A stretch of DNA of 32,000 nucleotides from Lysobacteraceae bacterium (GCA_023657465.1 JAGTJX010000004.1:18053-50052); one strand, 5' to 3'; shown: positions 13,015 to 25,010, counted from the stretch's first letter. Made by a program: numbers and translations. Notes: generated by a model from the sequence alone, not told the origin.

Positions 13015-13889
13015 GAATGATTCCATTTATAATTTTAATGCAGTTGTTTTCTCTTCAAGCAAGAGCGACACCAGAAATCGATACGCTTTGCCAGGAAATC
13101 GACTTAGAAGTGAATGCTTTGAAGTGGAAGCTCCCGAGCTGCAATAAACTTGCGGAATGGAAAAGTCTGGGACAATCCGTAAAAGGTCGACCCCTCATTT
13201 ATGCTGAATTCGGAAACCCTGAATCAAAAAATACAACACTGATATTCTCCATGGTTCACGGTGATGAAATCACACCATTATTTATTGGTTTGAAGCTTGC
13301 AGACTGGCTTAAGCAGCAGCCAGTGATGCTCAAGACCCATCGTATTATTGTAGCTCCTCTGGTTAACCCAGATTCCTTCTTCTCTACACCGAGAACACGA
13401 GTGAATGCTCGTGGAGTTGATGTGAATCGGAATCTAGGCACTCTGGATTGGAAGTCCAAAGCGCTCCAGGCTTGGAAAACACAGTTCAAATCAGACAAAC
13501 GTAGATTCCCAGGTAATGAGCCTGACTCTGAGCCTGAAACGATATTTCAAAAAGACTTAATCAAGCTCACCAATCCTTCAAAAATCATGTCCGTTCATTC
13601 ACCTCTCAATCACTTGGATTACGATGGACCAACGACACTCTCTTTGTGGCGTTTTCCAAAAGACTATGTGGAAGAATGCATTAGGCTCAGTCAAAAAGTA
13701 AAAGCAAAATCTACAGGTTATTTTATTGGATCATTAGGTAACTATGCTGGAACAGAAAGAGGTATACCTACTTTCACCATGGAGTTACCTACTGCGAATC
13801 CCAAGAAAGCTTGGGATTATTGGCTTATCTTTAAAGCTGGGATCTATACAGTGATTCAGCATGGAGTTCCTAGAGTTGTCACGCATTAG
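13011..13889 (+). CDS. Secreted M14-family zinc carboxypeptidase-like protein (MpaA-like)
   Basis: I moved the start to ATG 13011, which forms an ATGA overlap with the dedA stop and precedes a signal peptide. Zinc motif HGDE, NPDSF and RGVDVNRN are present, with a later His (MSVHSP). Confidence 0.7.
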   Translation: MRMIPFIILMQLFSLQARATPEIDTLCQEIDLEVNALKWKLPSCNKLAEWKSLGQSVKGRPLIYAEFGNPESKNTTLIFSMVHGDEITPLFIGLKLADWLKQQPVMLKTHRIIVAPLVNPDSFFSTPRTRVNARGVDVNRNLGTLDWKSKALQAWKTQFKSDKRRFPGNEPDSEPETIFQKDLIKLTNPSKIMSVHSPLNHLDYDGPTTLSLWRFPKDYVEECIRLSQKVKAKSTGYFIGSLGNYAGTERGIPTFTMELPTANPKKAWDYWLIFKAGIYTVIQHGVPRVVTH

Positions 13890-14227
13890 CGCATTGAAGG
13901 ATTGAGTCTAGCCCATGCTGCAGAAGCTGGGTTACGGATAGGTGCAATTCTGTACCAATCACCATCCGAGTCGATGATTTGGTAGTCTTCTTTTTTGGCT
14001 AATCTTCCCACAATCGGAAAATAATCTGCAGGTCCTGATCTGAGTTCAAGTGAAGCATTGTCAGTTGAAAGTTTTGCAGAAAGAGGATGGGCGCGAGTGA
14101 TCGTAATGACGGGCTTCTTCTGAAGTTCTGCTAGTTTCTGAGATCCAGATACTGTTAAACCCACTCCAACGATAATGGACATCACTGATGAAAAAATAAA
14201 GGCTTTACTGAGTAAGTTAATTTTCAT
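13886..14227 (-). CDS. Secreted bacterial SH3-domain protein (last gene of the motAB-containing operon)
   Basis: Signal/TM segment at the N-terminus. SH3b-like C-terminus (GRLAKKEDYQIIDSDGDWYRI). GAGGAA SD is present. The start lies 16 nt after the motB stop. Confidence 0.55.
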   Translation of the reverse strand: MKINLLSKAFIFSSVMSIIVGVGLTVSGSQKLAELQKKPVITITRAHPLSAKLSTDNASLELRSGPADYFPIVGRLAKKEDYQIIDSDGDWYRIAPIRNPASAAWARLNPSMR

Positions 14228-14243: not shown

Positions 14244-15053
14244 TTATCTTACAGTTTCAGGAACTGTTTCAACCGGAACGTTTTGCCTAGAAGGCTCTTT
14301 GAAACCACTAAAAGGTATGGCGTGGATATCAGGGTGGAGTACGCGGACTACGACTCGGCGATTTTTTCCCATCGCTTCTTCACTGAGTTCTCCAGAGGGA
14401 GTGCGATCAGTGAGTTTGGGACGAGTGTCTCCGTACCCTATGGCTAGCATGTGAACAGGTAAAAACTTATTATCAATGAATTGTCTGACGATGCGAGAAG
14501 CCCTTGCTCCGGAGAGCTCCCAGTTTGAAGGGTAGATGCCACCAATAATGGGACGTTGGTCCGTATGGCCTTCAATGACAACGTTGTAATTTAACTTTTT
14601 TCGCTCTTGAGATTTCTTGATGGCGTTAGTAAGTTTTCCTAATACAAGTTTGCCATTGTCGGTAACATCAGCACTTCCAGTAATGAAAAACACTGCTGAT
14701 TCAAAAGTCACACTGACTCCCGTTTCATCGCTTGTGACGATGGACTCTTTATCAAGTCCAGCTTCTTGAATCATGTTTGAAATTTCTTTTTGAATATCTG
14801 CTGAAGGATTTTGATACTCGCCTTTGAAGTGCTTTGAGATTTCTTCTCTGACTTTTTCGAATTTGCCTTTTTCGAGATTTGCGAGACTGAACATCATGAT
14901 GAAGAATCCACAAAGGAGTGTCATCATGTCAGCATAAGAAATCAGCCAGTTGCCTTCACCTTCTTCTACATGTGGAGCGCTTGTATGATGTTCATACCTT
15001 TTGTCCTCATGGATCTCTGTCTGTTTTTTCTTAAATAAACTACGAATCGCCAT
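14244..15053 (-). CDS. motB: MotB-type stator protein with an OmpA-like peptidoglycan-binding domain
   Basis: NWLISYADMMTLLCGFFIMMF TM segment includes the conserved channel Asp. C-terminal OmpA-like motifs are GHTDQRPI, NWELSGARASRIVRQF and NRRVVVRV. Confidence 0.85.
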   Translation of the reverse strand: MAIRSLFKKKQTEIHEDKRYEHHTSAPHVEEGEGNWLISYADMMTLLCGFFIMMFSLANLEKGKFEKVREEISKHFKGEYQNPSADIQKEISNMIQEAGLDKESIVTSDETGVSVTFESAVFFITGSADVTDNGKLVLGKLTNAIKKSQERKKLNYNVVIEGHTDQRPIIGGIYPSNWELSGARASRIVRQFIDNKFLPVHMLAIGYGDTRPKLTDRTPSGELSEEAMGKNRRVVVRVLHPDIHAIPFSGFKEPSRQNVPVETVPETVR

Positions 15054-15057
15054 CGAA

Positions 15058-15843
15058 TTATGCCGCGGCTTTCTTCACAACGCGATCCTTTGGTAGAAGG
15101 AAAGAGTTTAAGCTCTCGCGCATTGCTATGGGGTTTGTGCTTTGTTTAAGAAGTAGAGCGCCTTCGATGATCATTCTTCGAAGCATGATTTCATCTTTGG
15201 TTCTCTCGGCGAGATTCTCTGCAATAGGAATGAAAACCATGTTGGCAAGTGTAATTCCGTAAAGAGTACCTACGAGACCAATTGACATCGCAGGTCCGAT
15301 CATTTTCTCAGCTCCGGGTTGACCTAGCTTTTGAAGAAGTGCAATCATCCCTAGAGTAGTAGCCAGAAGACCGAATGCTGGAGGAAACTTACCGATGACT
15401 CTAAACATGTTGGCTTCGTACATGTAGCGTGCTTCGATTGTTTTTAAGCGAGTCTCAAGCACTTGTCTAATCTCTTTTTCACTGAGTACTCCGTTTGAAA
15501 CGAGTGAAACAGCTTCTTTGAGGAATTCATGTTTGAGAGTAGGAACGACTTCGCTGATTGCAGATAAACCAGCTACAGCTTTTTTGTTGAGTTCTAAGAA
15601 CTGTTCAATGATGTGTTGATGGCTTGCGTGATTGATTCCTAAGACGCGAAGGAAGAAAACTTTTGTAAGAGCAAGAAGCTTAGTTACTGGGAAGCAGATA
15701 CTAGCAGCTGCTAAAGTTCCGCCGATAACGATTACGACTCCGTGGAAGTTTAAGAAGAACGCCATCTCCATTCCTGATTCATGAAGAGAGGCAACTACGA
15801 TCCCTAATCCCAATAGAACTCCAAAAAGTGAGGATAGATTCAA
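15058..15843 (-). CDS. motA: MotA/PomA-type stator channel protein
   Basis: 261 aa with a 2+2 TM topology and a large cytoplasmic loop. MotA/TolQ/ExbB signature region is FPPAFGLLATTLGMI...GPAMSIGLVGTLYGITLANMVFIPIAE. Confidence 0.85.
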   Translation of the reverse strand: MNLSSLFGVLLGLGIVVASLHESGMEMAFFLNFHGVVIVIGGTLAAASICFPVTKLLALTKVFFLRVLGINHASHQHIIEQFLELNKKAVAGLSAISEVVPTLKHEFLKEAVSLVSNGVLSEKEIRQVLETRLKTIEARYMYEANMFRVIGKFPPAFGLLATTLGMIALLQKLGQPGAEKMIGPAMSIGLVGTLYGITLANMVFIPIAENLAERTKDEIMLRRMIIEGALLLKQSTNPIAMRESLNSFLLPKDRVVKKAAA

Positions 15844-15845
15844 GA

Positions 15846-16355
15846 TTATGCAGCCTCCTTACGACGTGCAAGAGCTGTTTTCCACAGCTGGTATTGACTA
15901 ATGACGTATTTTTGATCTGTTTCTCTGAGACGAGCAATCATTGTGTCGATGCATGATTTGTAAAATCGCATTTTTCTAGAATCATCGCTCATGACATAGG
16001 CTTCAAACTTCTCTCTAGAAATCTGAAACACTTGGCAGTCCATGAGCGCTCTTACGGTTGCTGATCTTGGATTGTTATCGATGAGAGAGAGCTCACCAAA
16101 CACTGCGCCGGGCTGCAAGTGACCTAAGTCGTATTGATTGCTTCCCATCGGATTGGCCTTACTCACTCCGACTTGTCCATCAAGAAGTACGAACATACCA
16201 CCTTTGGTATCTCCTTCAATCATGATGTTGGTGTGAGCTTGTACGGCATAAGTTTCTCCAGTAGAAATTAACTCTTGGATCTCTTCATCAGTGAATCCAG
16301 AAAGGAGTTTCACTTCTTTGATCGTTTCTACAGTTGGAGCTTGTATCTCTGTCAT
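15846..16355 (-). CDS. Stand-alone cyclic-nucleotide-binding (CAP effector) domain protein
   Basis: The FGELSLIDNNPRSATVRA phosphate-binding cassette is typical of cNMP-binding domains. Length is 169 aa. It overlaps the upstream gene by 4 bp. Confidence 0.8.
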   Translation of the reverse strand: MTEIQAPTVETIKEVKLLSGFTDEEIQELISTGETYAVQAHTNIMIEGDTKGGMFVLLDGQVGVSKANPMGSNQYDLGHLQPGAVFGELSLIDNNPRSATVRALMDCQVFQISREKFEAYVMSDDSRKMRFYKSCIDTMIARLRETDQKYVISQYQLWKTALARRKEAA

Positions 16356-18616
16356 CCAGCCGCCTTGTAGAGAGCTGTATTCTCTCCGAACATTCTCTCA
16401 TTGGTTTCAATGAGATTAATGTGTCCATCTGTTGCCATGACTTTAATTCGGTTGAGTGCTTTTCGCTCAACCGCCATGTAGGCTTCTCTGTTTGGTGCTG
16501 GGAAGTTTGCTAGCTCTTCTTGTAATTCTTCTACTAAGTTAGTGGGTGCTTTTGAGAATACAACTCCACGAATTTCGTCGCTTGTACCGCGCAAGAAGGT
16601 AAGGAGCTCTTCGTGTTTGAGAGAAAGTACAAGATCAAGTAATTGATTGTCTTGCAAGTACTTGAGAGTCTCAAGACTGACTAACTTACTCTTAATAGTA
16701 CGAACACTATCAGGATTCACTGATCCTAGTGAGTGAACGACAGACTTCTGAGTTTCAGAATTAGACTTCTCAAGAAGAGTCACTAGCACATCTGACCCTG
16801 GTAATGCCTCTGTATTGAGTCTTGGATTTTCCACACGTTTACGTTTCAACGCGCTTGAGACGTTGTGAATATAATCTCTTGGTAAGTGGTCGATCCGTGT
16901 GAGTTCGGTTAATAGCTTCATTTTCACATCTTCTTCAAGATGTTGATAGATAGCGTTTCGTCTTTGGTGATCGACTTGAGTGAGAACGACAGCCTTTACT
17001 GTGAGAGATTCATTTCTTACGAGTTCAACAACTTGGAGTGCGTCCATTTCGACTAAGAAGTCGAAAAGACTTGAAGCCCGTGAACCCATAACGACCATCT
17101 TAGCTGCGACGGTTCTGTTATGAAGGTGTCTTAAGAGTTCAAGAGCGTCATCGTCTGCAATCTCTGTAGGGTTCTTAGCGTAATACTCCATGAGTTCTTG
17201 TAGATCTCCTTGAAGAGAAGGGTCTTTCAGCATGTCGATGACTACGCTTTCACCAAACATATGAATGTATTGTGCTGTGATTTCCATTCCTTCTTCTGTC
17301 AGGATTCTACTAAATACGTGTTTAGCGACTTTTGGCTGTTCGGCAAAAATCGTTGATAGCTCTTCTTTAAGCCGCTCGATTTCGTATCGCTTTGCAATAA
17401 TTGCTCCCTTGTCAGACCCACTACCAGAGTCTCCACCTGACTTGTATGTTGAGGGTGCGCTTGTAGATACTGGATCAGAAGTAAGGGATTGAAATATTCT
17501 GGAGACTCCAGATTTAGATTCACTACGAGAACCTCTAGCGCCAGCTATTGCGATGAAGATAAGAAGTAAAAGAATGGCGCAGCTGAAAATGAGCCCATAG
17601 ACTTTGAACTTTTGTAGTTCAGATTGAACTGCATCGCCATTTTCTACTCGTTCAATCTTTTCAAAACGTTCAAAACGTTCTTGTCTAGCAGTGTTGTGAT
17701 GTTCGTTTGAATTCTTGAATTCAGTATTGCTTGTTTTCTTATCTTCTGTTGAAGCAAATTTTCTATCTGTGTTCTCAGAGTTATTATTGGTAGTGTCGTT
17801 TTTGCTACTTGAACTAGAAGAATTATATCCGTTTGGATCCATGAGTGAACCAATCGACACGCCAGAGCTGGTCTTAGGGAACTTCATTACCTTAGACTTC
17901 ACATCTGCGTACTTCAGAAAGTTTGTTTTGAGTTTTGCCATCTCAATGATGTTGCGTTGCTCTTCGCCTGCAAGTACATCATTCATGAGTAGGGTACTAG
18001 AAACACGGTTGACCTTAATTGCGAAATCGCCATCTTGGAAAAACTCACCTGGAGAAGCGTATTGAGCTTCTTCAGTGTTGACTGGTTCGGCATTGATCTC
18101 GAAGTCAGCCATAATACAATTCTCAGGACAGACTTGTCCAATTAGCTCGTTCACGGCTTCTTTATATTGTCTAGAAACTCTCTCCCGTAGTTCTGCAAAC
18201 TTGCGAGCCGATGTTGCAGGTTGTGGAAACTTAGCGCTGGTCGTATCGATTCCTACTAAGTAGTTGAGACCTTCTAAGTTCTTCTTCATGAGATTGATGA
18301 AGTTATCTCGGGTTCCATTACCCAACATCGTATCGACTAAAATTTTTACTTTTGCTGATGCTGGTTTAAGATCAATTTCGTTAGAAAGAGTACGATCAGA
18401 GAATCCTGGAAGGAATTCGTCTGGTGTGGCCACTTCAACTTCAGCGTCTACTCCTAATAGCTTACATTGGTCAGGACAATATTTTGTGAGGAGTGGATCG
18501 ATGATTGCTCGAATGTCCGATTCAGACTTGCGCTTCACTTCTTCTACTGCACTGACTCTTTTTGCGTGCGACTCATTAGCACTGAATAGTATCGCTACAA
18601 ATAAAATAAACCTCAT
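16352..18616 (-). CDS. Membrane protein combining two FliF/EscJ-like ring-building-motif repeats (periplasmic), one TM helix and a FliG-like middle plus C-terminal region (cytoplasmic)
   Basis: Signal peptide is MRFILFVAILFSANESHA. Two alpha-beta-beta-alpha-beta-like repeats each carry a CPxxC (CPDQC, CPENC). An S/N/T-rich linker follows, then the TM segment VYGLIFSCAILLLLIFIAIAGA. The cytoplasmic part aligns by eye to FliG: FDFLVEMDALQVVELVRNE...LTQVDHQRRNAIYQHLEEDVKMKLLTELTRID, and LVSLETLKYLQDNQLLDLVLSLKHEELLTFLRGTSDEIRGVVFSKAP. Confidence 0.7.
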   Translation of the reverse strand: MRFILFVAILFSANESHAKRVSAVEEVKRKSESDIRAIIDPLLTKYCPDQCKLLGVDAEVEVATPDEFLPGFSDRTLSNEIDLKPASAKVKILVDTMLGNGTRDNFINLMKKNLEGLNYLVGIDTTSAKFPQPATSARKFAELRERVSRQYKEAVNELIGQVCPENCIMADFEINAEPVNTEEAQYASPGEFFQDGDFAIKVNRVSSTLLMNDVLAGEEQRNIIEMAKLKTNFLKYADVKSKVMKFPKTSSGVSIGSLMDPNGYNSSSSSSKNDTTNNNSENTDRKFASTEDKKTSNTEFKNSNEHHNTARQERFERFEKIERVENGDAVQSELQKFKVYGLIFSCAILLLLIFIAIAGARGSRSESKSGVSRIFQSLTSDPVSTSAPSTYKSGGDSGSGSDKGAIIAKRYEIERLKEELSTIFAEQPKVAKHVFSRILTEEGMEITAQYIHMFGESVVIDMLKDPSLQGDLQELMEYYAKNPTEIADDDALELLRHLHNRTVAAKMVVMGSRASSLFDFLVEMDALQVVELVRNESLTVKAVVLTQVDHQRRNAIYQHLEEDVKMKLLTELTRIDHLPRDYIHNVSSALKRKRVENPRLNTEALPGSDVLVTLLEKSNSETQKSVVHSLGSVNPDSVRTIKSKLVSLETLKYLQDNQLLDLVLSLKHEELLTFLRGTSDEIRGVVFSKAPTNLVEELQEELANFPAPNREAYMAVERKALNRIKVMATDGHINLIETNERMFGENTALYKAAG

Positions 18617-19335
18617 GGCGATGCTAACTTCCGTGATTGAACATATTTTTGTCTGTCGACAAATTTCTTTAATCCTATATTACTTGGATTAAACTCAAGG
18701 GCTTGGCCCCATGCCTTGATTGCTAAGTCTTGATAGCCTAACTTCTGAAGCACAGTCCCTCGCATTTCATAAAGTTTAGGATTGGTAGGATATTGTCTGA
18801 TCATTGGATCTACTTCAAGAAGCGCTGCTTCGAATCTACCCATGTTGTAGAGCTGTTTTACTTTATCAATCTTAGCAAGATAGCTACCATCAGAATCTGG
18901 TGTTTCATCTTGAGTAGGAGCAAGACCTAAGCCATTTTCAATTTCACGTCTTTTCCATTCATCGTTTGGATTACCTTTTGGAAAAGTTTGTTCAATCTCT
19001 CTATCTGCGATGGTTGGCTTTCTCTCATCATAGGTATAGTCGTACTGAGTATTCGATGCGACATTTCTTCCGCTGCTATTCATTTCATTAAAATCAGGAT
19101 TCATTGGCATAATAACATCGGTGATGTCTTTATCGGATTCTGGGATTTCGACTTCAATTGATCGATCGCCTTTTTTAGTTCTGAAAATCATTGGAGATTT
19201 AGATGCTTTAGCTGCGTTGTAGAAATCACCAAACGGGTTTTCAATAGGCTGAGCGCTTTCTTCTTTAGTTGAGAAAGCAGAACATCCAATCATGGTTGTC
19301 ATGAGCAATATGCTAAATATATTTTTCAAACTCAT
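18613..19335 (-). CDS. TPR-repeat lipoprotein
   Basis: Lipobox-like LMTTMIGC follows a signal sequence. C-terminal TPR-like repeats are present (GRFEAALLEVDPMIRQYPTNPKLYEMRGTVLQKLGYQDLAIKAWGQALEFNPSN). An ATGA overlap links it to the downstream gene. Confidence 0.7.
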   Translation of the reverse strand: MSLKNIFSILLMTTMIGCSAFSTKEESAQPIENPFGDFYNAAKASKSPMIFRTKKGDRSIEVEIPESDKDITDVIMPMNPDFNEMNSSGRNVASNTQYDYTYDERKPTIADREIEQTFPKGNPNDEWKRREIENGLGLAPTQDETPDSDGSYLAKIDKVKQLYNMGRFEAALLEVDPMIRQYPTNPKLYEMRGTVLQKLGYQDLAIKAWGQALEFNPSNIGLKKFVDRQKYVQSRKLASP

Positions 19336-19353
19336 TTAACCCTAGCCTCCGAT

Positions 19354-20517
19354 TCAAAACATTGCGCTTACGCCAAGACCGATTTCGATACCCGAAACAC
19401 TTCCTGCGCTTGTTCCACTCAGGAACGCTGTAGCAGGTGGTCTGTAGCCTAAGCTCACTGGAACTGCCCAGTGCTTACCAAAACGCCATTCATAGCCAAT
19501 GCGACCAATTGCACCTAAGAATCCAGATGCATAAGTGCCGCCAGCTGCGATAAAAAGACTGTTTCTAGCCTTGTTATAGCTTTCAATTTCTCCCCAGAGA
19601 TTCCACGCATGAACGAAAAGGAGTGTGAGGTTGAAGCCAGAGTAGAGATTGACTGTACCTGCAGTAGGAGTCACACCCATTAGCGTGTTAACGTCCATCA
19701 TGTAGTTCATTTCAAAACCGACTTCCTTCTTGCGATTGTCGTAACGTTCTACCATTCTAAATGCGAATCCAAGAACGCTTGAATAAGTTCCTACGTTTGC
19801 TTGATAGAAGTAATAGAGAGTTGGGCGATACATCACAGTAGGCGCGAATTCGATTTGATCCGTTTTAGGATTGATCTGATTGAAATCAACTCCACGACGG
19901 AATGCAGTGGCACGGGAAGTTTCAGAGTTATAACTCTTAGACCATGCAACAGTGCCTGTTTCGGCGTCTACTATATAGAAAGAAATGAGCATTCCAGAGG
20001 GTTGATAAGAAAATGCAATGTCCATGAAGTTTTCAATTCCAGACATTTTTGCAATTCTCGCTAATTGTACAGAGTTTCCATCAGTATTACTGATCACAAC
20101 ATTATCACCAAAAATATTTGCACTTTTTGCCTTACAAGGAAGACATTGAATCATTCTGGTTTTTGAGTTTCTGACAATTTTTTCACTGGTGACTAATTCT
20201 AAGTGCTGTCTGAATGACGGCGGTACGTTCTCACTGACTCCGATGTTTCGGATAGTGAGATTCTTCAGTCCTGAGACTTGTCCGTTTTTTACGTCGTACT
20301 CGAAGTCTGCAATCGTCTCTTCTAAGACTTGGTAGAAACTTCTAAATTTTTTGTCTTTATCTTTTTCCAAACCTAGCTTCGAACCAGTGGTTTCTGGAGC
20401 AGTGTCTTTTTGTAAACTCACGTTAGGCTCCGTCTCGTCAGATTTTGGTGCTACCTGTGCGTAGAGATATCCTGAAGTGATTAAGGCGATAAGCAAAATC
20501 AATAGATGCGAGCGCAC
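19354..20517 (-). CDS. Outer-membrane beta-barrel protein candidate (first gene of the operon)
   Basis: GTG start is preceded by AAGGAG. Signal peptide is MRSHLLILLIALITSGYLYAQ. The C-terminal half shows alternating hydrophobic and aromatic residues. The protein ends in Phe (GLGVSAMF), as is typical of OMPs. Confidence 0.55.
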   Translation of the reverse strand: MRSHLLILLIALITSGYLYAQVAPKSDETEPNVSLQKDTAPETTGSKLGLEKDKDKKFRSFYQVLEETIADFEYDVKNGQVSGLKNLTIRNIGVSENVPPSFRQHLELVTSEKIVRNSKTRMIQCLPCKAKSANIFGDNVVISNTDGNSVQLARIAKMSGIENFMDIAFSYQPSGMLISFYIVDAETGTVAWSKSYNSETSRATAFRRGVDFNQINPKTDQIEFAPTVMYRPTLYYFYQANVGTYSSVLGFAFRMVERYDNRKKEVGFEMNYMMDVNTLMGVTPTAGTVNLYSGFNLTLLFVHAWNLWGEIESYNKARNSLFIAAGGTYASGFLGAIGRIGYEWRFGKHWAVPVSLGYRPPATAFLSGTSAGSVSGIEIGLGVSAMF

Positions 20518-20844
20518 AAAGATTGTGCTCCTTCCTCAGATATCTCTTCGGACACAGGAGCTTGTGCTTAAGGACAAAGTAATTAATCTTGGGATTTAGT
20601 TAGTATTAGGTTGAAAATCGACATTTTTTTGTCAGTTCAGTGTGATTTACGTTTCTATTAAAAGTTAGAAGGAACAAGCGATGATCTGTATTCCTTAATA
20701 GAAAACGGCCTCAAAAATTGGAACGTTATTTAATAGAGATAGAAGGAGCCTGAATTTCTAGGCTCATTTTGAGAGTAGTGACTATATTTTACTCAAATAC
20801 ACATAATGGCAAAATCTACATCCCGGAAATAAGTAAATTCTAAG

Positions 20845-21042
20845 GTGAATTGTTTGAAAGATACGATTGTTAAGATGTTTCGTTCTTCATTCAAAAAGGT
20901 CGATAAAAAGTATATGGGAGTTCATTTGGTCATTCGCAATTTTCTTTATTGGATAACAGGTAATTCAGATAAACGTTTTTATGATATCTTTAATACAAAC
21001 AAGATAAAATTCAAATCTATAGATTCTGAAGAAAGCTTATGA
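20845..21042 (+). CDS. Hypothetical small protein (AT-rich ORF)
   Basis: 65 codons with a GTG start. An ATGA overlap with the next ORF is the only support. No homology was recognised. Confidence 0.3.
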   Translation: MNCLKDTIVKMFRSSFKKVDKKYMGVHLVIRNFLYWITGNSDKRFYDIFNTNKIKFKSIDSEESL

Positions 21043-21281
21043 TTTTTATAAGCCAACAAAAATTCACTACATTAACCAATGCAATGCTCCTTGTATTTTG
21101 TATTAGTTTTACTGGGATATTCGTACCCATAATTTCTTATTTCATGCAAAAAAAATGGTTTCCCTCAAAATACTCAAATTTGAATGCAGGTCTTCGAACA
21201 GAAGCAATACTAGTAGAATCCACAAGTAATAAGCGAGCAGTTGCAAGCCAGGTGAAACAACCTAAAAAAGTCCGGCGTTAA
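21039..21281 (+). CDS. Hypothetical membrane-anchored protein, possibly frameshifted at an A6 tract
   Basis: One predicted TM segment (AMLLVFCISFTGIFVPIISYF). After the A6 run at 21265-21270 the -1 frame stays open to 21463. Confidence 0.35.
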   Translation: MIFISQQKFTTLTNAMLLVFCISFTGIFVPIISYFMQKKWFPSKYSNLNAGLRTEAILVESTSNKRAVASQVKQPKKVRR

Positions 21282-21467
21282 GTCGGCCGATAATCAATAA
21301 GAATATTGCTACATCTCCAGCTAAGGAAGATTCCAAAGCTGAAAACCTTGCCGAAGCAGAAGCTCAAATAGCAGAAATCAAAACCGATCCTGAGTTTGAG
21401 CAGCTGTTTGGAGGCAATAGTGATTGGTTTTACAGAAGCTTTAGTTTTTGGAAAAATACTTGATGCA

Positions 21468-21511
21468 TTATTTGCAATTAATATTTGTTGGGTTATTTGC
21501 AATTAATATTT
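21468..21511. repeat. Tandem direct repeat, 2 copies of TTATTTGCAATTAATATTT with 25-bp period
   Basis: Copies at 21468-21486 and 21493-21511 are identical over 19 bp. Confidence 0.9.
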
Positions 21512-21671
21512 TTATCAAAATGAAATTCTGTAACTAGATTTTGTTCTTTTGATGCTACCTCAGCTAACCAACTCATCGTCTGGCACGCTTTGAAGAAGTG
21601 TCTCAATGGCATCCGCCTTTTCCTGGGTCACAAGAAAAAGCTTTCTCTTAGTTTCACTTTTAATCGCAACC

Positions 21672-21942
21672 TCAATAAGGCGCGTTTTCACGACTACCGA
21701 CATAAGTTACCTCCACTATTTTAACTTCGTTATTCACTACTTCCCAAACAGCAACATAGCTATAATTCAAATGGCAGTGATGAGTTCCATCAGTAAGTTT
21801 TGGATAGTTAGGTCAATTCACAGCGAACTGGACCGTTTGCCATGATATTGGCGATCAGGATCTGAAGTAATTCCCGAACATTTTTGGGCAGTTTACTTGG
21901 ACCTTTTACAGCCTTTTTCTTGGTTTTAACTGTCCAGGTCAA
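21672..21942 (-). pseudogene. Decayed RelE/ParE-superfamily-like toxin gene (1-nt frameshift plus in-frame TGA)
   Basis: Two frames read TWTVKTKKKAVKGPSKLPKNVRELLQILIANIMANGPVR and then N*PNYPKLTDGTHHCHLNYSYVAVWEVVNNEVKIVEVTYVGSRENAPY. The span is 271 nt, which is not a multiple of 3. A TGA sits where Trp is expected. Family assignment is by eye. Confidence 0.5.
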
Positions 21943-21961
21943 CTTTATTTCTAGTAAAAAA

Positions 21962-22141
21962 CTAAGCTCTCTTTTTACCAGGAGGGGAAGCCAATATTTT
22001 TTTAGCTTCCTCTAAATCCACCAGCTGATCAGTAACGTAGCGATGAATCACTGAGCCCACTAAGGTTTGGTAGGGAAGTCCATGCTTGAGCGCTAGCTTC
22101 TGTAACTTGAGCAAGTCCTCTTCTGGCAAACGAATGTTCAT
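21962..22141 (-). CDS. Ribbon-helix-helix (CopG/BrnA-like) antitoxin, 59 aa
   Basis: This ORF is below the track threshold. It reads MNIRLPEEDLLKLQKLALKHGLPYQTLVGSVIHRYVTDQLVDLEEAKKILASPPGKKRA. The LPxxxL...G.PYQTL pattern is typical of RHH antitoxins. It lies directly upstream of the toxin remnant. Confidence 0.6.
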   Translation of the reverse strand: MNIRLPEEDLLKLQKLALKHGLPYQTLVGSVIHRYVTDQLVDLEEAKKILASPPGKKRA

Positions 22142-22342
22142 ACGTTCAGATTTTGAGCTCTTAGAAGACCGAACTATTAGATTTGCTCGTTAAATCGAAG
22201 AGTTTTGATCCGAGCATTGCTTGGAAAACATTGGATGAATGAGAGCCGTACATATTTCGCTAAAAGCGAAGGATAGGCCATTCTCATTTAGTGAAACTGA
22301 CTCTTATTTCGTTTTTAGCGAAACATAGTGAAAAGGAAGTGT

Positions 22343-23044
22343 ATGAATAGAAATTTTTTATTGGTTTTAATGAGCATCACAGCATCTGCCTTCGCTCAAG
22401 AGCCATTCAATGCTTTATCTAGTTATAATAACGAGACTCATCCCATTTTACTTACAATTGAATTGCAAGAGACTAAGTCTTGGAAAGAAACAAACTCAAC
22501 AACTATAGCAAATATTTATGCTGATGAATCTGAGGAAGAGGTGGCACATAAATTACTTTTTCATAAGAAACATAATTTAATTGAAAATAAACTTTCTAAG
22601 TATCCTGTTTATGAAAGTATTAAGTCCATAATGGTGAATGCTAGAGAAGAAATTTATAGAACAATGCCTCAATCAATCACGAGAAAGACAATTTCAGAAC
22701 ATGGAACTGAATACCCAGTAATTATTGCTGATTTCAACCTTTTAGAAAATAAAGTGAGACTTTATTTATCAAGCAGCTCTAACTACAACGTAGAATTTGA
22801 TAGAATGTTACAAATTAGAAGAGATCGAATGAATGTTCTTGCTGGAACTAACTTCAGAATGGCACCTCCCACTCCAGGCGTTCCTCCGATTGAAAAAATT
22901 AATTTAAACGAAACACTAACTACTGAAGATAAAACTAAAATCACTAAACAATTAATAGATGCTATTCATTCTGCTTTTTCAATTACTATCAATACTTTTG
23001 AGTTTAATGAAAAATTGAGAACTACCATTGATTTGTTTAGTTAA
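22343..23044 (+). CDS. Secreted hypothetical protein
   Basis: I moved the start to ATG 22343, which follows AGGAAG. Signal peptide is MNRNFLLVLMSITASAFAQE. No homology was recognised. Confidence 0.6.
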   Translation: MNRNFLLVLMSITASAFAQEPFNALSSYNNETHPILLTIELQETKSWKETNSTTIANIYADESEEEVAHKLLFHKKHNLIENKLSKYPVYESIKSIMVNAREEIYRTMPQSITRKTISEHGTEYPVIIADFNLLENKVRLYLSSSSNYNVEFDRMLQIRRDRMNVLAGTNFRMAPPTPGVPPIEKINLNETLTTEDKTKITKQLIDAIHSAFSITINTFEFNEKLRTTIDLFS

Positions 23045-23266
23045 AAAATACTTAACCCTGATCACTAGCTCGCTTGATGCGTACTAAAGTAAAAGATTAA
23101 AATCACAAAAACGGGCCAAACAGAGCAGAGTGAGCGGGAAACAACGAAGTTGTTTCGTGCGATGCTCCAAATCTTGAGAGCTCCAGGTTTAAGCTGTACC
23201 CCTTCTAACCAAGAAGCACTGCAGCTACAGAACCCCTTCTGAAATAGCATTGACAGATGAACATTA

Positions 23267-23295
23267 GATTGTTACACAGCGATTAGATTTTAAAT
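23267..23295 (+). repeat. 29-bp conserved upstream element, copy 1 (GATTGTTACACAGCGATTAGATTTTAAAT)
   Basis: Identical to 23642-23670. It contains a possible TTGTTA -35 and an A/T-rich -10. It lies about 31 nt upstream of ATG 23326. Confidence 0.85.
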
Positions 23296-23325
23296 ATTAA
23301 ACAGATAACTGAAGGGGAAAACTCA

Positions 23326-23616
23326 ATGAAAAATATATTTTTTGGAATGCTCGCTCTCGCTAGTTCAACTCAAGCGTTCGCCGCTTGGCCTGAAACACAG
23401 TTGTTTTGTAAAAACGGAAAACTCTACGGAATCATCTATAACAATGATCCATTTATTGTTACGGAGTTTACCAATCAGAAAGAGTGTTCAAACAGCTTCG
23501 TGAATAGAAAATATTGCAAGGAAGCCAACATGCACGTCGTCTATGTCAAAGATGATCAAGCAGTAGAACACTATGCTACTCAAGACGAATGTCGCGAGGC
23601 TATTGGTAAAAATTAA
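23326..23616 (+). CDS. Small secreted Cys-containing protein
   Basis: Signal peptide is MKNIFFGMLALASSTQAFA. The mature part of 77 aa has 4 Cys. No homology was recognised. Confidence 0.6.
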   Translation: MKNIFFGMLALASSTQAFAAWPETQLFCKNGKLYGIIYNNDPFIVTEFTNQKECSNSFVNRKYCKEANMHVVYVKDDQAVEHYATQDECREAIGKN

Positions 23617-23641
23617 CCTATAGAGATATAAAAGAACGTAG

Positions 23642-23670
23642 GATTGTTACACAGCGATTAGATTTTAAAT
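23642..23670 (+). repeat. 29-bp conserved upstream element, copy 2
   Basis: Identical to 23267-23295. It lies about 24 nt upstream of ATG 23694. Confidence 0.85.
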
Positions 23671-23693
23671 TATTGGTTTTAGGAGTACTGAAT

Positions 23694-24098
23694 ATGAAAA
23701 ATATCCTGTCGATAATTTTATTTTTATCAAGCCTGAGTGCTTTTGCCTATGAGTACCCTGCTGCAAAAAGAGATCGTCCAATTATCGAAAAAGCCTTGAA
23801 TATGTACGACATTTCATTTGATGAACTCAAGTTCCCTTTAAAACGTCAGATTTTTACAGGAACCATGACTGCTTTAACTAAAATTCCAGAACTTGTTTCA
23901 TTTTTGACTGGTCTAGGCGATCAGCATTTCGTCACTCTCCATGTTATTGAAGGAAAGTTTAATCATGAGCAAAAGACATGCATCGCATATGTGCAGTTGA
24001 ACTTTGATAATACTCAAGAAGTTGAAATTGCAAATTGTGGCACTCATTACACTGACTTTTTCAGTTCCAAAAGATTAGTTCCACTCACTAGACCCTGA
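23694..24098 (+). CDS. Small secreted hypothetical protein
   Basis: I moved the start to ATG 23694, which follows AGGAG. Signal peptide is MKNILSIILFLSSLSAFA. Confidence 0.6.
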   Translation: MKNILSIILFLSSLSAFAYEYPAAKRDRPIIEKALNMYDISFDELKFPLKRQIFTGTMTALTKIPELVSFLTGLGDQHFVTLHVIEGKFNHEQKTCIAYVQLNFDNTQEVEIANCGTHYTDFFSSKRLVPLTRP

Positions 24099-24101
24099 TT
24101 A

Positions 24102-24188
24102 CATGAGCGCTGTTTGCTCATTAATTTAAAGAACTTAACGTGCACCCGAAGGCCTAATTGACATTCGGGCGTTTCCATTTCTATGAAA
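24102..24188 (+). repeat. Linker left module, copy 1 (hairpin 1 ATGAGC-N7-GCTCAT, hairpin 2 CCCGAA-N13-TTCGGG, then CGTTTCCATTTCTATGAAA)
   Basis: The same two-hairpin unit recurs at 27381-27422, 28801-28880 and 29297-29375. Hairpin 2 followed by a T-rich tail resembles an intrinsic terminator for the upstream plus-strand gene. Confidence 0.8.
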
Positions 24189-24191
24189 TAA

Positions 24192-24644
24192 CGCTCCCCA
24201 CTCTCCGCCCCAGTTGATGCATCTGACTGGTATATCAGTGATCGATTATCAGAAAAGCTAAAGAGTTATCCAATGGCGGATTTAGTTCCCTATCGAAACT
24301 ATTATCTAAAGCATATTTGGAATCGAGCAAAGTTCTATAACGGTCTCTCGAAGAAAGTGTTGGGAAGAGAAGTAAAGCATACGCTACTGATTCATCACAA
24401 TCTACTTAACGCTCTTTTCTTAGATGATTTATTGGCTATGTTTAAGAAGAATGGGTGGAAAATCATCTCTGCTGAAAGTGCATTTTCTGATCCTATCTTT
24501 AAAACTGAAGCAAAAATAGCCCCAGCTGGAGAAAGCATTTTATGGGCACTTGCTAAGGAAACGGGTAAATTTGAATCAATATTACGTTATCCGGCAGAGG
24601 ATAGTGACTATGAAAAACCAGAAATGGATCGACTCGGACTTTAA
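24192..24644 (+). pseudogene. 5'-truncated polysaccharide-deacetylase-like gene fragment
   Basis: The frame is open from 24192, directly after the linker, and reads RSPLSAPVDASDWYISDRLSEKLKSYPMADLVPY...HTLLIHHNLLNALFLDDLLAMFKKNGWKIISAE...PAGESILWALAKE. This resembles only the C-terminal part of a deacetylase-family protein. The N-terminal catalytic part is missing. Family assignment is by eye. Confidence 0.45.
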
Positions 24645-24704
24645 GAAATTCGACTAAATTTGCGGAACCTTCCTATAGCATGGGTCTCTATTTCAAGTGT
24701 CCTC

Positions 24705-25007
24705 TCAAGCAACTTTCAGCCTGTAATCAGGATTGATCTTTGAATAAAGCCTGATGAGCTTATCAGTGCTAAATCGGGTAATCCGATGATTGAATATCCT
24801 GCTCATATCAGCCTTGGTAATGCCTAAAAATTTTGCCATCGCAACGGCACTTAATTCATGTTGCTGAGAGTACTTAAGAAGGTCCTGGCAAATCTGGAAT
24901 CGAAATCTAGCTAGCTCATCGGCGTCAGGCGATAGCATGAGAAAGCCAGGTTTCTTGCTAAGTTTTGCTCTGATTTTTGATAATTCCTTTTTACTTGGAA
25001 AACCCAT
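24705..25007 (-). CDS. XRE-family helix-turn-helix antitoxin (HigA-like)
   Basis: HTH region is LSAVAMAKFLGITKADMSRIFNHRITRFSTDKLIRLY. It starts 3 nt after the upstream small toxin-like ORF. Its SD (GAGGAAG) lies inside that ORF's 3' end. Confidence 0.75.
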   Translation of the reverse strand: MGFPSKKELSKIRAKLSKKPGFLMLSPDADELARFRFQICQDLLKYSQQHELSAVAMAKFLGITKADMSRIFNHRITRFSTDKLIRLYSKINPDYRLKVA

Positions 25008-25010
25008 TCC

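What the first reader, a model, noticed from the sequence alone, without database searches (positions are those of the whole stretch)
16352..18616. Natural FliF-like/FliG-like chimera with twin CPxxC-containing ring-building-motif repeats
**Periplasmic half.** After a signal peptide the protein has two similar units of about 110 aa:
- Unit 1: IRAIIDPLLTKYCPDQCKLLGVDAEVEV ... ASAKVKILVD ... NFINLMKKNLEGLNYLVGIDT.
- Unit 2: YKEAVNELIGQVCPENCIMADFEINAEPV ... FAIKVNRVSSTLL ... RNIIEMAKLKTNFLKY.
- Their helix-strand-strand-helix-strand order resembles the RBMs of FliF, EscJ and SpoIIIAG.
- Each unit has a Cys-Pro-x-x-Cys pair.

**Linker and membrane.** An S/N/T-rich linker and a single TM helix follow.

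**Cytoplasmic half.**
- About 400 cytoplasmic residues align by eye with FliG middle and C-terminal domains.
- This includes the segment equivalent to the torque helix (APTNLVEELQEELA). That segment keeps acidic residues but lacks the Arg of enteric FliG.

**Significance.** In flagella, MS-ring and C-ring functions are split between FliF and FliG. A single polypeptide joining them next to motAB is unusual.
Basis: partly seen in the sequence, partly recalled or inferred. Interest (0 to 1): 0.8.

Follow-up and report, generated by a model that had tools for sequence, protein, structure and literature searches.

The report
Membrane-anchored FliF/FliG-like rotor protein with own stator
A predatory-bacterium lineage carries a conserved operon in which flagellar-type MotA/MotB stator genes sit beside one protein that joins FliF-like periplasmic domains to a full FliG-like domain, plus two outer-membrane partners and no other flagellar genes nearby, which points to an undescribed ion-driven envelope machine built from flagellar rotor and stator parts.

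Summary
ORF 16352-18616 (-) encodes a 754-aa protein.

- **Periplasmic half.** It has a signal sequence and two homologous ~110-aa units (hhalign E 1.8e-10). Each unit models as alpha-beta-beta-alpha-beta. Each carries an invariant CxxxC.
- **Middle.** A variable S/N/T-rich linker and one TM helix follow.
- **Cytoplasmic half.** This is FliG-like. Pfam FliG_M and FliG_C score above threshold. The model aligns with full-length FliG.
- **Fold matches.** The best Foldseek PDB matches of the periplasmic model are Salmonella FliF MS-ring chains (E 5e-8). No sequence similarity to FliF or SctJ was detectable.

**Conserved cluster.** All 75 related loci, from Bdellovibrionota MAGs, keep the FliG-like gene, and every locus with enough flanking DNA keeps the same order:
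- putative OM barrel
- TPR lipoprotein
- this protein
- a cNMP-binding protein (usually)
- MotA
- MotB

Two distant relatives, a 986-aa variant and a single-unit form probably from Bradymonadales, keep the same partners in a different order.

**Best reading.** This is a self-contained, non-flagellar rotor-stator module. A dedicated flagellar-type stator acts on the FliG-like domain of a membrane-anchored, probably ring-forming protein. Movement is relayed to outer-membrane partners, and a cyclic nucleotide modulates it.

**Not shown.** Ring formation, rotation and the cellular role are inferred.

**Precedent and novelty.** The closest precedent is the Chlamydiaceae FliF-FliG fusion. I found no paper describing this system.

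The parts
19354..20517 (-). g387: secreted protein with a conserved N-terminal domain (invariant CxxC, C125/C128) and a probable C-terminal outer-membrane beta-barrel ending in Phe
   Evidence: ORF. Found in all related loci that hold enough upstream DNA, and in distant clusters L078 (E 4e-50) and L076. No Pfam or PDB sequence match; only weak OMP-barrel hints. Invariant residues.
18613..19335 (-). g240: lipoprotein (lipobox ...MIGC, invariant C18) with C-terminal TPR repeats. Its stop overlaps the start of the FliG-like gene by 4 nt
   Evidence: Conserved next to g387 in related and distant clusters.
16352..18616 (-). The 754-aa fusion protein: signal sequence, two RBM-like units, linker, TM helix, FliG-like N/M/C domains
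18563..18616 (-). N-terminal signal sequence (residues 1-18, MRFILFVAILFSANESHA)
   Evidence: Read from the sequence. An N-terminal hydrophobic region is present in all 28 homologues. Cleavage was not tested; no SignalP was available.
18212..18553 (-). RBM-like unit 1 (residues 22-135), with C47-x3-C51 at the helix 1/strand 1 turn and an invariant PGF in the strand 1-strand 2 loop
17867..18211 (-). RBM-like unit 2 (residues 136-250), with C163-P-x-x-C167
17681..17866 (-). Variable S/N/T-rich periplasmic linker (residues 251-312)
   Evidence: 29-95 aa across homologues, 44% S/N/T.
17606..17680 (-). Near-invariant charged juxtamembrane segment ERFERxEKIERVENGDAVQ...KFK (residues 313-337)
   Evidence: invariant E313, E319, E322-E325, G327-A329.
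17537..17605 (-). Single transmembrane helix (about residues 338-360)
   Evidence: hydropathy peak at 342-360, positive charge on the C-terminal side.
17405..17536 (-). Cytoplasmic linker of constant length (about 50 aa) holding a semi-conserved motif. It stands where the FliG-binding tail of FliF would be
   Evidence: The analogy to the FliF C-terminal tail is an inference.
17087..17404 (-). FliG N-like helical domain (residues 405-510)
   Evidence: The AF2 model aligns with full-length FliG over about 320 columns. No significant Pfam FliG_N match.
16817..17086 (-). FliG middle domain (Pfam match 528-594). The EHPQ motif is replaced by ESLT
16376..16816 (-). FliG C-terminal domain (Pfam match 629-735)
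   Evidence: 1qc7_B TM 0.82, rmsd 1.8; 8ucs_H TM 0.75.
16511..16549 (-). Torque-helix equivalent (residues 690-702, APTNLVEELQEEL)
   Evidence: Alignment to FliG. Residue counts.
15846..16355 (-). 169-aa stand-alone cyclic-nucleotide-binding protein with an intact phosphate-binding cassette (FGELSL..PRSATV) and a conserved C-terminal helix; no DNA-binding domain
   Evidence: Present in most related loci. The orthologue stays near the FliG-like gene in the Oligoflexales clade, where MotAB is not adjacent.
15058..15843 (-). MotA, flagellar-stator type (closest to MotP/PomA/MotA)
   Evidence: C. sporogenes MotA 6ysf E 1e-33; PomA E 1e-28.
14244..15053 (-). MotB with plug helix, conserved TM Asp (YADMMTLL) and OmpA-type peptidoglycan-binding domain

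Best explanation
The minus-strand operon 14244-20517 encodes a self-contained rotor-stator module that is not part of a flagellum.

**Shown.**
- MotA/MotB are a flagellar-type, plug-gated, peptidoglycan-anchored ion-driven stator.
- The 754-aa protein has the same membrane topology as FliF/SctJ. It exposes a complete FliG-like domain, including the C-terminal torque-helix subdomain, on the cytoplasmic face.
- The genes are co-inherited with an outer-membrane barrel candidate, a TPR lipoprotein and, usually, a small cNMP-binding protein.

**Inferred.**
- The cytoplasmic face of the MotA pentamer engages the acidic torque helix of the FliG-like domain, as in flagellar motors.
- The twin RBM-like domains, each probably stapled by a CxxxC disulfide, together with the FliG ARM domains, assemble the protein into a ring. 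That ring is a one-polypeptide MS-ring plus FliG-ring.
- Ion flow drives the ring in one direction, because the FliM-binding EHPQ motif is lost and the cluster encodes no FliM or FliN.
- The movement is passed through the periplasmic part to the lipoprotein/barrel pair in the outer membrane.
- The cNMP-binding protein acts as a brake or clutch on the FliG-like domain.

**Unknown.** The cellular output is not known. Surface motility or an envelope process tied to a predatory lifestyle are the leading guesses.
For: - **FliG identity.** Pfam FliG_M and FliG_C score above gathering thresholds. A family profile hits FliG structures at E 1e-13. The only Foldseek hits with E<1e-3 are FliG chains, and full-length FliG aligns over about 320 columns.
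- **RBM-like units.** They are true repeats with alpha-beta-beta-alpha-beta order. The top five PDB matches are all Salmonella FliF MS-ring chains, E 5e-8 to 8e-4.
- **Topology.** It places the FliG part in the cytoplasm.
- **Stator type.** It is of the flagellar kind, with a plug and a conserved Asp.
- **Synteny.** The order g387, g240, FliG-like, (cNMP), MotA, MotB is kept in every related locus with enough flanking DNA, out of 75 species-level genomes. Start and stop codons overlap or nearly abut.
- **Distant relatives.** These share only E 1e-19 to 1e-6 similarity in the N-domain, yet they still sit beside MotA, MotB and homologues of g387 and g240, in a different order.
- **No flagellar context.** No flagellar or type III export genes lie in the 32-kb window.
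- **Cysteines.** A DsbA-like gene lies directly upstream of the FliG-like gene in 3 of 3 Oligoflexales-clade loci. This fits periplasmic disulfides at the invariant cysteines.
- **cNMP link.** The cNMP-binding gene follows the FliG-like gene even where MotAB is not adjacent.
Against: - No oligomer was modelled, so ring formation is unproven.
- The alpha-beta-beta-alpha-beta fold is shared with non-ring BON domains. OsmY and DolP appear as weaker hits.
- The N-domain has no sequence similarity to FliF or SctJ.
- A 29-95-aa disordered linker separates the RBM units from the membrane. It would transmit torque poorly.
- The canonical charge pairs are not in register.
  - The R281 position of FliG is acidic or Asn.
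  - The MotA position aligned to R90 is S, A or G.
  - The MotA position aligned to E98 is variable, with charged residues one or two positions away.
  - A different interface, or simply an alignment offset, cannot be told apart.
- In the Oligoflexales clade, MotAB, g387 and g240 are not within 9 kb.
- I could not check whether these genomes also hold canonical fliF and fliG.
Confidence: 0.5

Rival explanations
1. A non-rotary force transducer in the manner of Ton or Tol. Single copies or small oligomers of the FliG-like protein are pushed by the spinning MotA pentamer. The resulting pull travels along the long flexible periplasmic linker to the twin N-terminal domains. These domains dock on the TPR lipoprotein and barrel in the outer membrane. 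Inner-membrane ion flow would thereby energise an outer-membrane process.
For: - The linker between the N-domains and the TM helix is long, variable and disordered (29-95 aa). This recalls the periplasm-spanning parts of TonB and TolA.
- An outer-membrane barrel candidate and a TPR lipoprotein are obligatory partners. Tol-Pal similarly has Pal, an outer-membrane lipoprotein, and the TPR protein CpoB (own knowledge).
- The N-domain fold also resembles dual-BON proteins, which bind membranes.
Against: - In the known Ton, Tol, Gld and Agl systems (own knowledge) coupling happens inside the membrane or in the periplasm, not through a cytoplasmic FliG domain.
- MotA here is of the flagellar class, not the ExbB/TolQ class.
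- The best structural matches of the N-domain are ring-forming FliF chains, about 10,000-fold better in E-value than BON proteins.
- The ARM_M and ARM_C parts of FliG that build the ring in flagella are kept.
Confidence: 0.25
2. It is the true flagellar rotor of these lineages: a fused FliF-FliG that replaces the separate proteins, encoded with the flagellar stator.
For: - Engineered FliF-FliG fusions assemble into rings (PDB 8z4d; papers listed). By my own recollection the Salmonella fusion also supports motility.
- Bdellovibrio swims with a flagellum (review text quoted).
- JGI annotates many homologues as 'flagellar motor switch protein FliG'.
Against: - The score is far below the FliG equivalog cut-off: 53 bits against 226.7.
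- There is no sequence match to FliF.
- There are only two RBM units, with about 20-aa strand 1-strand 2 loops and no beta-collar.
- The EHPQ motif that binds FliM is lost.
- No export-gate, rod, hook or switch genes lie in the window or the conserved neighbourhood, which consists of housekeeping genes.
- The conserved partners are an outer-membrane barrel candidate and a TPR lipoprotein that match no flagellar family in Pfam or NCBIfam.
- No homologue among the named hits came from cultured flagellated Bdellovibrio bacteriovorus or Bacteriovorax.
Confidence: 0.07
3. A regulatory decoy or accessory of the flagellar motor. The membrane-anchored FliG-like protein, under cNMP control, captures or parks stator units, or forms an extra ring around the flagellar basal body. 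This would tune swimming.
For: - A cNMP-binding protein is tightly linked to the FliG-like gene. FliG is a known target of second-messenger brakes such as YcgR (own knowledge).
- Flagellar motors of related groups carry lineage-specific TPR scaffolds (PflA, PflB) and rings built from ARM or MgtE_N-like domains (FlgY, FlbB) (PMC13023049).
Against: - A decoy has no obvious need for two conserved outer-membrane partners, a dedicated co-inherited MotAB pair, or periplasmic RBM-like domains with invariant cysteines.
- The operon is not linked to flagellar genes.
- About ten loci lack the cNMP gene yet keep everything else.
Confidence: 0.12

Closest known systems
Flagellar MS-ring/C-ring core (FliF plus FliG) driven by MotA5B2 stators
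   Same: - FliG_M and FliG_C domains, and a full-length FliG-like fold.
- Periplasmic alpha-beta-beta-alpha-beta units whose best structural match is FliF.
- The same topology.
- A flagellar-class MotA, and a MotB with plug, Asp and OmpA domain, encoded alongside.
- Acidic residues at the D288/D289 positions of the torque helix.
   Different: - One polypeptide instead of two.
- Two RBM-like units rather than three, and no beta-collar.
- No sequence similarity to FliF.
- EHPQ lost, and R281 replaced by an acidic residue or Asn.
- No FliM/FliN, export apparatus, rod, hook or filament genes nearby.
- Obligatory partners are an outer-membrane barrel candidate and a TPR lipoprotein.
Chlamydiaceae FliF-FliG fusion protein (Bergeron 2016, PMC4768692)
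   Same: A natural single polypeptide with two periplasmic RBM-type domains, a membrane anchor and a cytosolic FliG-like part, in a setting without a complete flagellum.
   Different: - The chlamydial protein is about 330 aa.
- It has two TM helices.
- Only the FliG M region is reported, so it has no torque domain.
- It is discussed as a partner of the injectisome protein SctQ, not of MotAB.
- Here all of FliG is present and the gene is linked to a stator.
- Sequence relatedness between the two was not tested.
SctJ (EscJ/PrgK), inner-membrane ring of injectisomes
   Same: Signal sequence, two tandem RBMs, linker and a C-terminal TM helix: the same periplasmic architecture. PrgK/PrgH/MxiG-type chains appear among the weaker Foldseek hits.
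   Different: - SctJ is a lipoprotein with almost no cytoplasmic part (own knowledge).
- No sequence match to Pfam YscJ_FliF.
- No injectisome genes here.
Other non-flagellar 5:2 motors (ExbBD-TonB, TolQR-TolA, GldLM, AglRQS, ZorAB)
   Same: A MotAB-family ion-driven unit encoded with a dedicated partner that reaches across the envelope to outer-membrane components.
   Different: - The A subunit here is of the flagellar class, not the ExbB/TolQ class. The MotB also carries the plug helix (Pfam MotB_plug) typical of flagellar stators (classification in PMC12505986).
- MotA matches no PADLOC ZorA model; MotB gives only generic ZorB (MotB-family) matches.
- The partner is a FliG-like cytoplasmic domain, which none of those systems uses (own knowledge).

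Membership tests
FliG (flagellar rotor/switch protein) | FliG middle domain (Pfam PF14841) at or above the gathering score | tested here: met
   31.1 bits against a cut-off of 25, residues 528-594.
FliG (flagellar rotor/switch protein) | FliG C-terminal domain (Pfam PF01706) with the torque-helix subdomain | tested here: met
   50.6 bits against a cut-off of 23.3, residues 629-735. The model superposes on 1qc7_B (TM 0.82, rmsd 1.8 A) and on FliG_C bound to MotAB, 8ucs_H.
FliG (flagellar rotor/switch protein) | Orthologue-level score (NCBIfam TIGR00207 equivalog) | tested here: not met
   53.1 bits against a cut-off of 226.7.
FliG (flagellar rotor/switch protein) | N-terminal domain that binds the FliF C-terminal tail | tested here: inconclusive
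   Pfam FliG_N scores only 13.7 bits, and on the M region. However, the AF2 model aligns with full-length FliG (3hjl, 8wiw, 8umx) over about 320 columns.
FliG (flagellar rotor/switch protein) | EHPQR motif of the M domain that binds FliM | tested here: not met
   Aligned to ESLT. Only E536 and the later R574 are kept. No fliM or fliN in the window.
FliG (flagellar rotor/switch protein) | Charged torque-helix residues K264, R281, D288, D289, R297 (E. coli numbering) | tested here: inconclusive
   K/R676, E700/E701 and R710 are conserved. The R281 position is E or D in 26 of 28 proteins and N in the window. The E. coli numbering was mapped by me; the R281/D288/D289 pairings are quoted in PMC12505986.
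FliG (flagellar rotor/switch protein) | Soluble cytoplasmic protein, separate from FliF | tested here: not met
   Fused behind a TM helix to a periplasmic domain.
FliF / SctJ (Pfam YscJ_FliF, MS-ring and injectisome inner ring) | Sequence match to PF01514, or to FliF or SctJ of known structure | tested here: not met
   No such hit at E<=10 for any of 27 members, nor for the family profile against PDB sequences.
FliF / SctJ (Pfam YscJ_FliF, MS-ring and injectisome inner ring) | Tandem periplasmic ring-building motifs of alpha-beta-beta-alpha-beta topology | tested here: met
   AF2 secondary-structure order in both units. Foldseek top hits are 7bk0_B, 6scn_A and 8t8p_A (FliF), E 5e-8 to 5e-7, probability 1.00. 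Global TM-scores are low (0.27-0.30), so the match is local and by domain.
FliF / SctJ (Pfam YscJ_FliF, MS-ring and injectisome inner ring) | RBM3 with a beta-collar insertion (FliF-specific) | tested here: not met
   The strand 1-strand 2 loops are only about 20 residues. The position of the collar in FliF is from my own knowledge.
FliF / SctJ (Pfam YscJ_FliF, MS-ring and injectisome inner ring) | Assembly into a ring of 20-35 subunits | not testable with these tools
   No multimer prediction was available.
FliF / SctJ (Pfam YscJ_FliF, MS-ring and injectisome inner ring) | Genomic association with type III export-gate genes | tested here: not met
   None in the window or the conserved neighbourhood.
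Flagellar-type stator MotA/MotB | MotA_ExbB domain, with closest relatives among flagellar MotA/PomA/MotP | tested here: met
   Pfam 69.3 bits. NCBIfam best hits are MotP, PomA and MotA, all below equivalog cut-offs. PDB hits: 6ysf E 1e-33, PomA E 1e-28.
Flagellar-type stator MotA/MotB | MotB plug helix, conserved TM Asp and OmpA-like peptidoglycan-binding domain | tested here: met
   PF13677 56.9 bits, PF00691 51.1 bits. The YADMMTLL motif is conserved in 64 orthologues.
Flagellar-type stator MotA/MotB | MotA R90 and E98 (E. coli) rotor-contact charges | tested here: inconclusive
   The aligned positions are S/A/G (90) and N/S/K (97). K87, K88 and E/D98 are conserved one or two positions away. 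The alignment has a one-residue gap here.

The most novel reading that the evidence does not exclude
This is a stand-alone ion-driven rotary motor with no type III export apparatus, rod or filament. A ring of one fused FliF/FliG-like protein is spun by its own MotAB stators and coupled to an outer-membrane lipoprotein/barrel complex. It occurs in predatory Bdellovibrionota and in relatives that are probably Bradymonadales. It would be either a flagellar rotor-stator core stripped down and re-used for a new envelope function (surface movement, prey attack), or a surviving relative of the rotor-stator pair that predates its union with the export apparatus.
Probability: 0.3. Interest if true: 0.9.

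Novelty: new variant of a known kind. Interest (0 to 1): 0.78.

Why it matters
**Open question it touches.** FliG and flagellar-class MotAB are known to work only inside flagella. Surveys have noted rotor proteins in non-motile species and asked whether rotor components have other uses (PMC12199754).

**What this adds.** Here is a concrete, widely conserved candidate:
- a minimal rotor-stator set in a single operon
- no export apparatus or axial parts nearby
- outer-membrane partners
- a cyclic-nucleotide sensor

**If it rotates.**
- It would be a new class of bacterial rotary machine.
- It would be a natural minimal system, with one rotor polypeptide, for studying torque generation.
- It would bear on how the flagellar motor was assembled in evolution.

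**If it does not rotate.** It would still show a new way of coupling a 5:2 motor to the outer membrane.

**Experimental access.** A relative is annotated from Persicimonas, a genus with a cultured species. The genome record named 'Bdellovibrionota bacterium FG-2' is not flagged as a MAG. Experiments may therefore be feasible.

Tried and rejected
- **Sequence searches of the N-domain.** Pfam (E up to 10) and PDB sequences gave only noise.
- **Anti-phage defence.** Rejected. PADLOC gave nothing for the FliG-like protein, g240, g387 or MotA. The only matches were generic MotB and cNMP-domain hits.
- **A 'Rosetta-stone' fusion of g387 and g240.**
  - It appeared in locus L076 as a called 689-aa gene matching both.
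  - I reject it as evidence, because the junction is Arg/Pro-rich nonsense followed by an internal lipoprotein signal (...LAGGC).
  - It is therefore most likely two adjacent genes merged by gene calling or a frameshift.
- **Promoter and terminator scan of the operon.** Counts were no higher than in shuffled sequence.
- **tRNA and Rfam scans of the window.** Nothing found.
- **Literature searches.** Seven searches found no description of this family. The only precedent was the chlamydial fusion.
- **The FlgY/FlbB E-ring.** It has a periplasmic ARM/MgtE_N domain. I considered it and rejected it as a match, because here the ARM-type domains are predicted to be cytoplasmic.
- **Canonical fliF/fliG in the same genomes.** I could not test this. 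Only 18-20 kb around each locus is accessible.

Full report
**1. The observation**

The ORF at 16352-18616 on the minus strand is real and encodes 754 aa. It has more than 200 homologues in the protein collection. The best 120 listed are mostly full length, 740-840 aa, and about 50% identical. Every informative name points to Bdellovibrionota, Oligoflexia or Bacteriovoracia metagenome-assembled genomes. The exact sequence is an NCBI MAG protein labelled 'Xanthomonadaceae bacterium'. That label conflicts with all relatives.

In an alignment of 28 full-length members:
- The four cysteines C47, C51, C163 and C167 are invariant.
- PGF70-72, FP130-131, FP246-247 and most of the charged segment 313-329 just before the TM helix are also invariant.

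**2. The periplasmic half**

- Residues 22-135 and 136-250 are a true tandem duplication. Profile-profile comparison gives probability 96.9%, E 1.8e-10, over 107 columns.
- An AlphaFold2 model of residues 20-250, built on 27 sequences, has mean pLDDT 83.8. Both units show the order helix, strand, strand, helix, strand. That is the ring-building-motif topology.
- In each unit the CxxxC sits exactly at the turn from helix 1 into strand 1. An intra-motif disulfide that staples this turn is my inference.
- Foldseek against the PDB returns five hits with E<=0.001, and all are Salmonella FliF MS-ring chains: 7bk0_B at 4.9e-8, 6scn_A at 2.9e-7, two 8t8p chains, and 7d84_A.
  - Weaker hits include injectisome inner-ring proteins (PrgH, and the 6rwx and 7ah9 chains).
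  - Other weaker hits have the same topology but are not ring builders: the dual-BON proteins OsmY and DolP, OsmC, and the MamM C-terminal domain.
  - Global TM-scores are low (about 0.3), so the match is by domain, not by the mutual arrangement of the two units.
- No sequence-level relationship to FliF or SctJ can be shown. Pfam YscJ_FliF is not hit by any of 27 members at E<=10, and the family profile hits no FliF in the PDB.

The periplasmic half is therefore 'FliF-like' in fold and architecture only. With a signal sequence, two RBMs, a linker and a TM helix, its layout is as close to SctJ as to FliF. It lacks the beta-collar insertion of FliF RBM3.

**3. Linker and topology**

- Between unit 2 and the conserved juxtamembrane segment lies a linker of 29-95 residues (median 72). 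It is 44% Ser, Asn or Thr and is not conserved.
- All 28 proteins have an N-terminal hydrophobic region and one strong central TM segment (window residues about 339-360).
- Net charge is +1 to +4 in the 15 residues after the TM segment and -2 to +1 before it.
- Together with the invariant cysteines, this places the N-terminal half in the periplasm and the C-terminal half in the cytoplasm.
- Cleavage of the signal sequence was not tested.

**4. The cytoplasmic half**

- Pfam finds FliG_M (residues 528-594, 31.1 bits, cut-off 25) and FliG_C (629-735, 50.6 bits, cut-off 23.3).
- The NCBIfam FliG equivalog is matched far below its cut-off, 53 against 226.7 bits. The protein is therefore a FliG relative, not an orthodox FliG.
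- A profile of residues 405-747 hits the FliG crystal structures 3hjl, 3ajc, 1lkv and 4fhr at E 1e-13 to 1e-11.
- The AlphaFold2 model of this region (pLDDT 83.6) is all-helical.
- In Foldseek, the only hits with E<0.001 are FliG chains. Full-length FliG from crystal and in-situ C-ring structures aligns over about 320 columns.
- The C-terminal subdomain superposes on 1qc7_B (TM 0.82, rmsd 1.8 A) and on FliG_C bound to a MotAB stator, 8ucs_H (TM 0.75).
- The cytoplasmic half therefore corresponds to the whole of FliG, including an N-like domain that sequence methods do not recognise.

Two functional motifs differ from flagellar FliG:
- **FliM-binding motif.** The EHPQ motif aligns to ESLT. Only the Glu, and the later Arg (R574), are kept.
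- **Torque helix.** I mapped it to E. coli numbering myself; the functional pairs R90/D288-D289 and E98/R281 are quoted in PMC12505986.
  - K264 corresponds to K/R676.
  - D288/D289 correspond to E700/E701, which are acidic in 27-28 of 28 proteins.
  - R297 probably corresponds to R710.
  - R281 corresponds to E or D in 26 of 28 proteins and to N693 in the window.
  - A Lys or Arg stands one position earlier in 26 of 28, but Thr in the window.

**5. The stator next door**

- MotA (15058-15843) is closest to flagellar MotP, PomA and MotA in NCBIfam, all below their equivalog cut-offs.
- It is closest to Clostridium sporogenes MotA (E 1e-33) and Vibrio PomA (E 1e-28) among solved structures.
- MotB (14244-15053) has the plug helix, the YADMMTLL motif with the channel Asp, and an OmpA-type domain.
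- In 67 aligned MotA sequences, the position HMMER aligns to E. coli R90 is S, A or G. The position aligned to E98 is variable.
- K87/K88 and an invariant acidic residue at 98 lie one or two positions away.
- The alignment has a one-residue gap here. I cannot tell a re-wired interface from an alignment offset.

**6. Gene neighbourhood: the main new result**

A scan of one genome per species found 75 loci. All come from Bdellovibrionota MAGs, from MAGs with vague or doubtful labels, or from the record named 'Bdellovibrionota bacterium FG-2'.

Every locus with enough flanking DNA has the same order:
- g387
- g240
- FliG-like
- cNMP-binding protein, absent in about ten loci of the most divergent subclade
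- MotA
- MotB

In the window, the genes overlap or are separated by 2-18 nt.

The partner genes:
- **g387** (19354-20517) has a signal sequence, a conserved N-terminal domain with an invariant CxxC, and a C-terminal part ending in Phe. It matches nothing in Pfam or the PDB, apart from weak outer-membrane-barrel hints.
- **g240** (18613-19335) is a lipoprotein with C-terminal TPR repeats.
- **The 169-aa protein** (15846-16355) is a bare cyclic-nucleotide-binding domain. It has an intact phosphate-binding cassette and a conserved C-terminal helix.

The rest of the window holds housekeeping genes (SMC, a GIDA-family gene I read as TrmFO, XerC-type recombinase, DedA, an M14 peptidase) and no flagellar genes.

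**7. A wider superfamily**

An exhaustive profile search with the periplasmic domain alone found 143 representatives. They fall into three further groups:
- more distant twin-unit proteins of 717-856 aa
- variants of 912-986 aa with an N-terminal low-complexity extension
- a group of about 540-625 aa that matches only one unit

The members I tested carry FliG_M, FliG_C or MgtE_N-type matches. All four that I read keep one CxxxC per unit.

Their genomic contexts:
- **The 986-aa and 969-aa variants** lie directly after MotA and MotB, preceded by two genes. In L078 those two genes are homologues of g387 (E 4e-50) and g240 (E 6e-20). No DNA was held for the other locus.
- **The single-unit protein P0225** lies on a 7.5-Mb contig. 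It follows MotA and MotB, which in turn follow g387-like and g240-like sequences. The only named member of its family is from Persicimonas, a genus of Bradymonadales whose described species is a predator (PMC7188933).
- **A clade named as Oligoflexales or Oligoflexaceae** differs.
  - Three of three loci have a DsbA-like gene directly upstream of the FliG-like gene.
  - Two of three have the orthologous cNMP-binding gene nearby.
  - None has MotAB, g387 or g240 within 9 kb.

The partnership of the FliG-like protein with MotAB, g387 and g240 thus survives gene-order change across deep divergence, though not in every clade. The cNMP sensor tracks the FliG-like gene rather than MotAB. The DsbA linkage fits disulfide formation at the invariant cysteines.

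**8. Interpretation**

The simplest reading is that the stator's partner is the FliG-like domain encoded beside it. MotA would engage the C-terminal torque-helix subdomain on the cytoplasmic face of the membrane, as in flagella.

Three features make a ring the most economical guess:
- ring-building-type periplasmic units
- the ARM_M and ARM_C parts of FliG, which polymerise in flagellar rotors
- a 1:1 fusion of the two

The result would be a one-protein MS-ring plus FliG-ring.

Loss of EHPQ, and the absence of FliM/FliN from the cluster, suggest there is no switch complex and so rotation in one direction. The outer-membrane pair is the likely receiver of the movement. The cNMP-binding protein is the likely regulator.

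None of these steps beyond domain identity, topology and co-inheritance is shown. The long disordered linker and the BON-like alternative for the fold keep a non-rotary, Ton/Tol-like pulling mechanism as a serious rival.

Weaker readings:
- That it is the true flagellar rotor. This is disfavoured by the equivalog score, the missing motifs, the partners and the genomic context.
- That it is a flagellar accessory or decoy.

**9. Known or new**

A natural FliF-FliG fusion has been described in Chlamydiaceae (PMC4768692). It is about 330 aa, is reported to hold only the FliG M region, and is not linked to MotAB.

The recent survey of MotAB and its non-flagellar relatives mentions FliG only once, in its introduction, as the flagellar rotor partner of the stator (PMC12505986). 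I read only the matched passages.

A 2025 survey noted rotor proteins in non-motile species and raised the possibility of other functions (PMC12199754).

Seven full-text searches found no description of this family or operon. The library lacks most subscription-journal papers, so this absence is not proof.

I rate the finding as a new variant of a known kind: flagellar rotor-stator parts in a new, non-flagellar arrangement. There is a fair chance that it is a new kind of machine.

**10. Limits**

- No multimer modelling was possible.
- I had no access to whole genomes to check for canonical flagellar genes.

Noticed in passing
window 19354-20517 (g387), residues 125-128: The putative outer-membrane partner has an invariant CxxC (QCLPCK here; CTKC and CTAC in the distant homologues from L078 and L076) in its N-terminal periplasmic domain. 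The domain matches nothing in Pfam or the PDB.
   Followed up: partly
L079:6837-7841, L080:7408-8382, L081:7864-8841: In the Oligoflexales clade, a DsbA/Thioredoxin_4 gene lies directly upstream of the FliG-like gene in three of three loci. This hints at a dedicated oxidase for the CxxxC motifs.
   Followed up: partly
L076:4226-6295: A called 689-aa gene matches both g387 (N-terminal part) and g240. However, it contains Arg/Pro-rich nonsense followed by an internal lipoprotein signal (...LAGGC). It is probably two genes merged by a frameshift or by gene calling in GC-rich DNA, not a true fusion.
   Followed up: yes
window 16352-18616 (protein P0001): NCBI labels the identical protein as coming from a 'Xanthomonadaceae bacterium' MAG. 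All 75 related loci and the named homologues are Bdellovibrionota, so the MAG is probably mislabelled or mis-binned.
   Followed up: partly
window 13886-14227 (-): A small 113-aa protein with an N-terminal hydrophobic segment and an SH3_3 domain lies 16 nt downstream of motB. Weak homologues follow motB in two of the 75 related loci (L027, L059); a third (L063) lies elsewhere on the opposite strand. It is probably not a core part of the module.
   Followed up: partly
window 20518-32000: G+C drops from about 0.42-0.47 to 0.36-0.39 upstream of the operon. The stretch holds mostly short ORFs, or ORFs with no Pfam match, plus a Fic/DOC protein (25784-26449). It may be a variable or acquired region.
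   Followed up: no
window 7299-9849 (+): Two adjacent ORFs of 280 and 576 aa have no Pfam match. They lie next to a leucine-rich-repeat protein (6074-7129).
   Followed up: no
loci L038, L046, L047, L050, L052, L053, L055, L064, L069, L073: The most divergent subclade of the window's family (42-46% identity) lacks the cNMP-binding gene between the FliG-like gene and motA. It keeps all other parts.
   Followed up: partly
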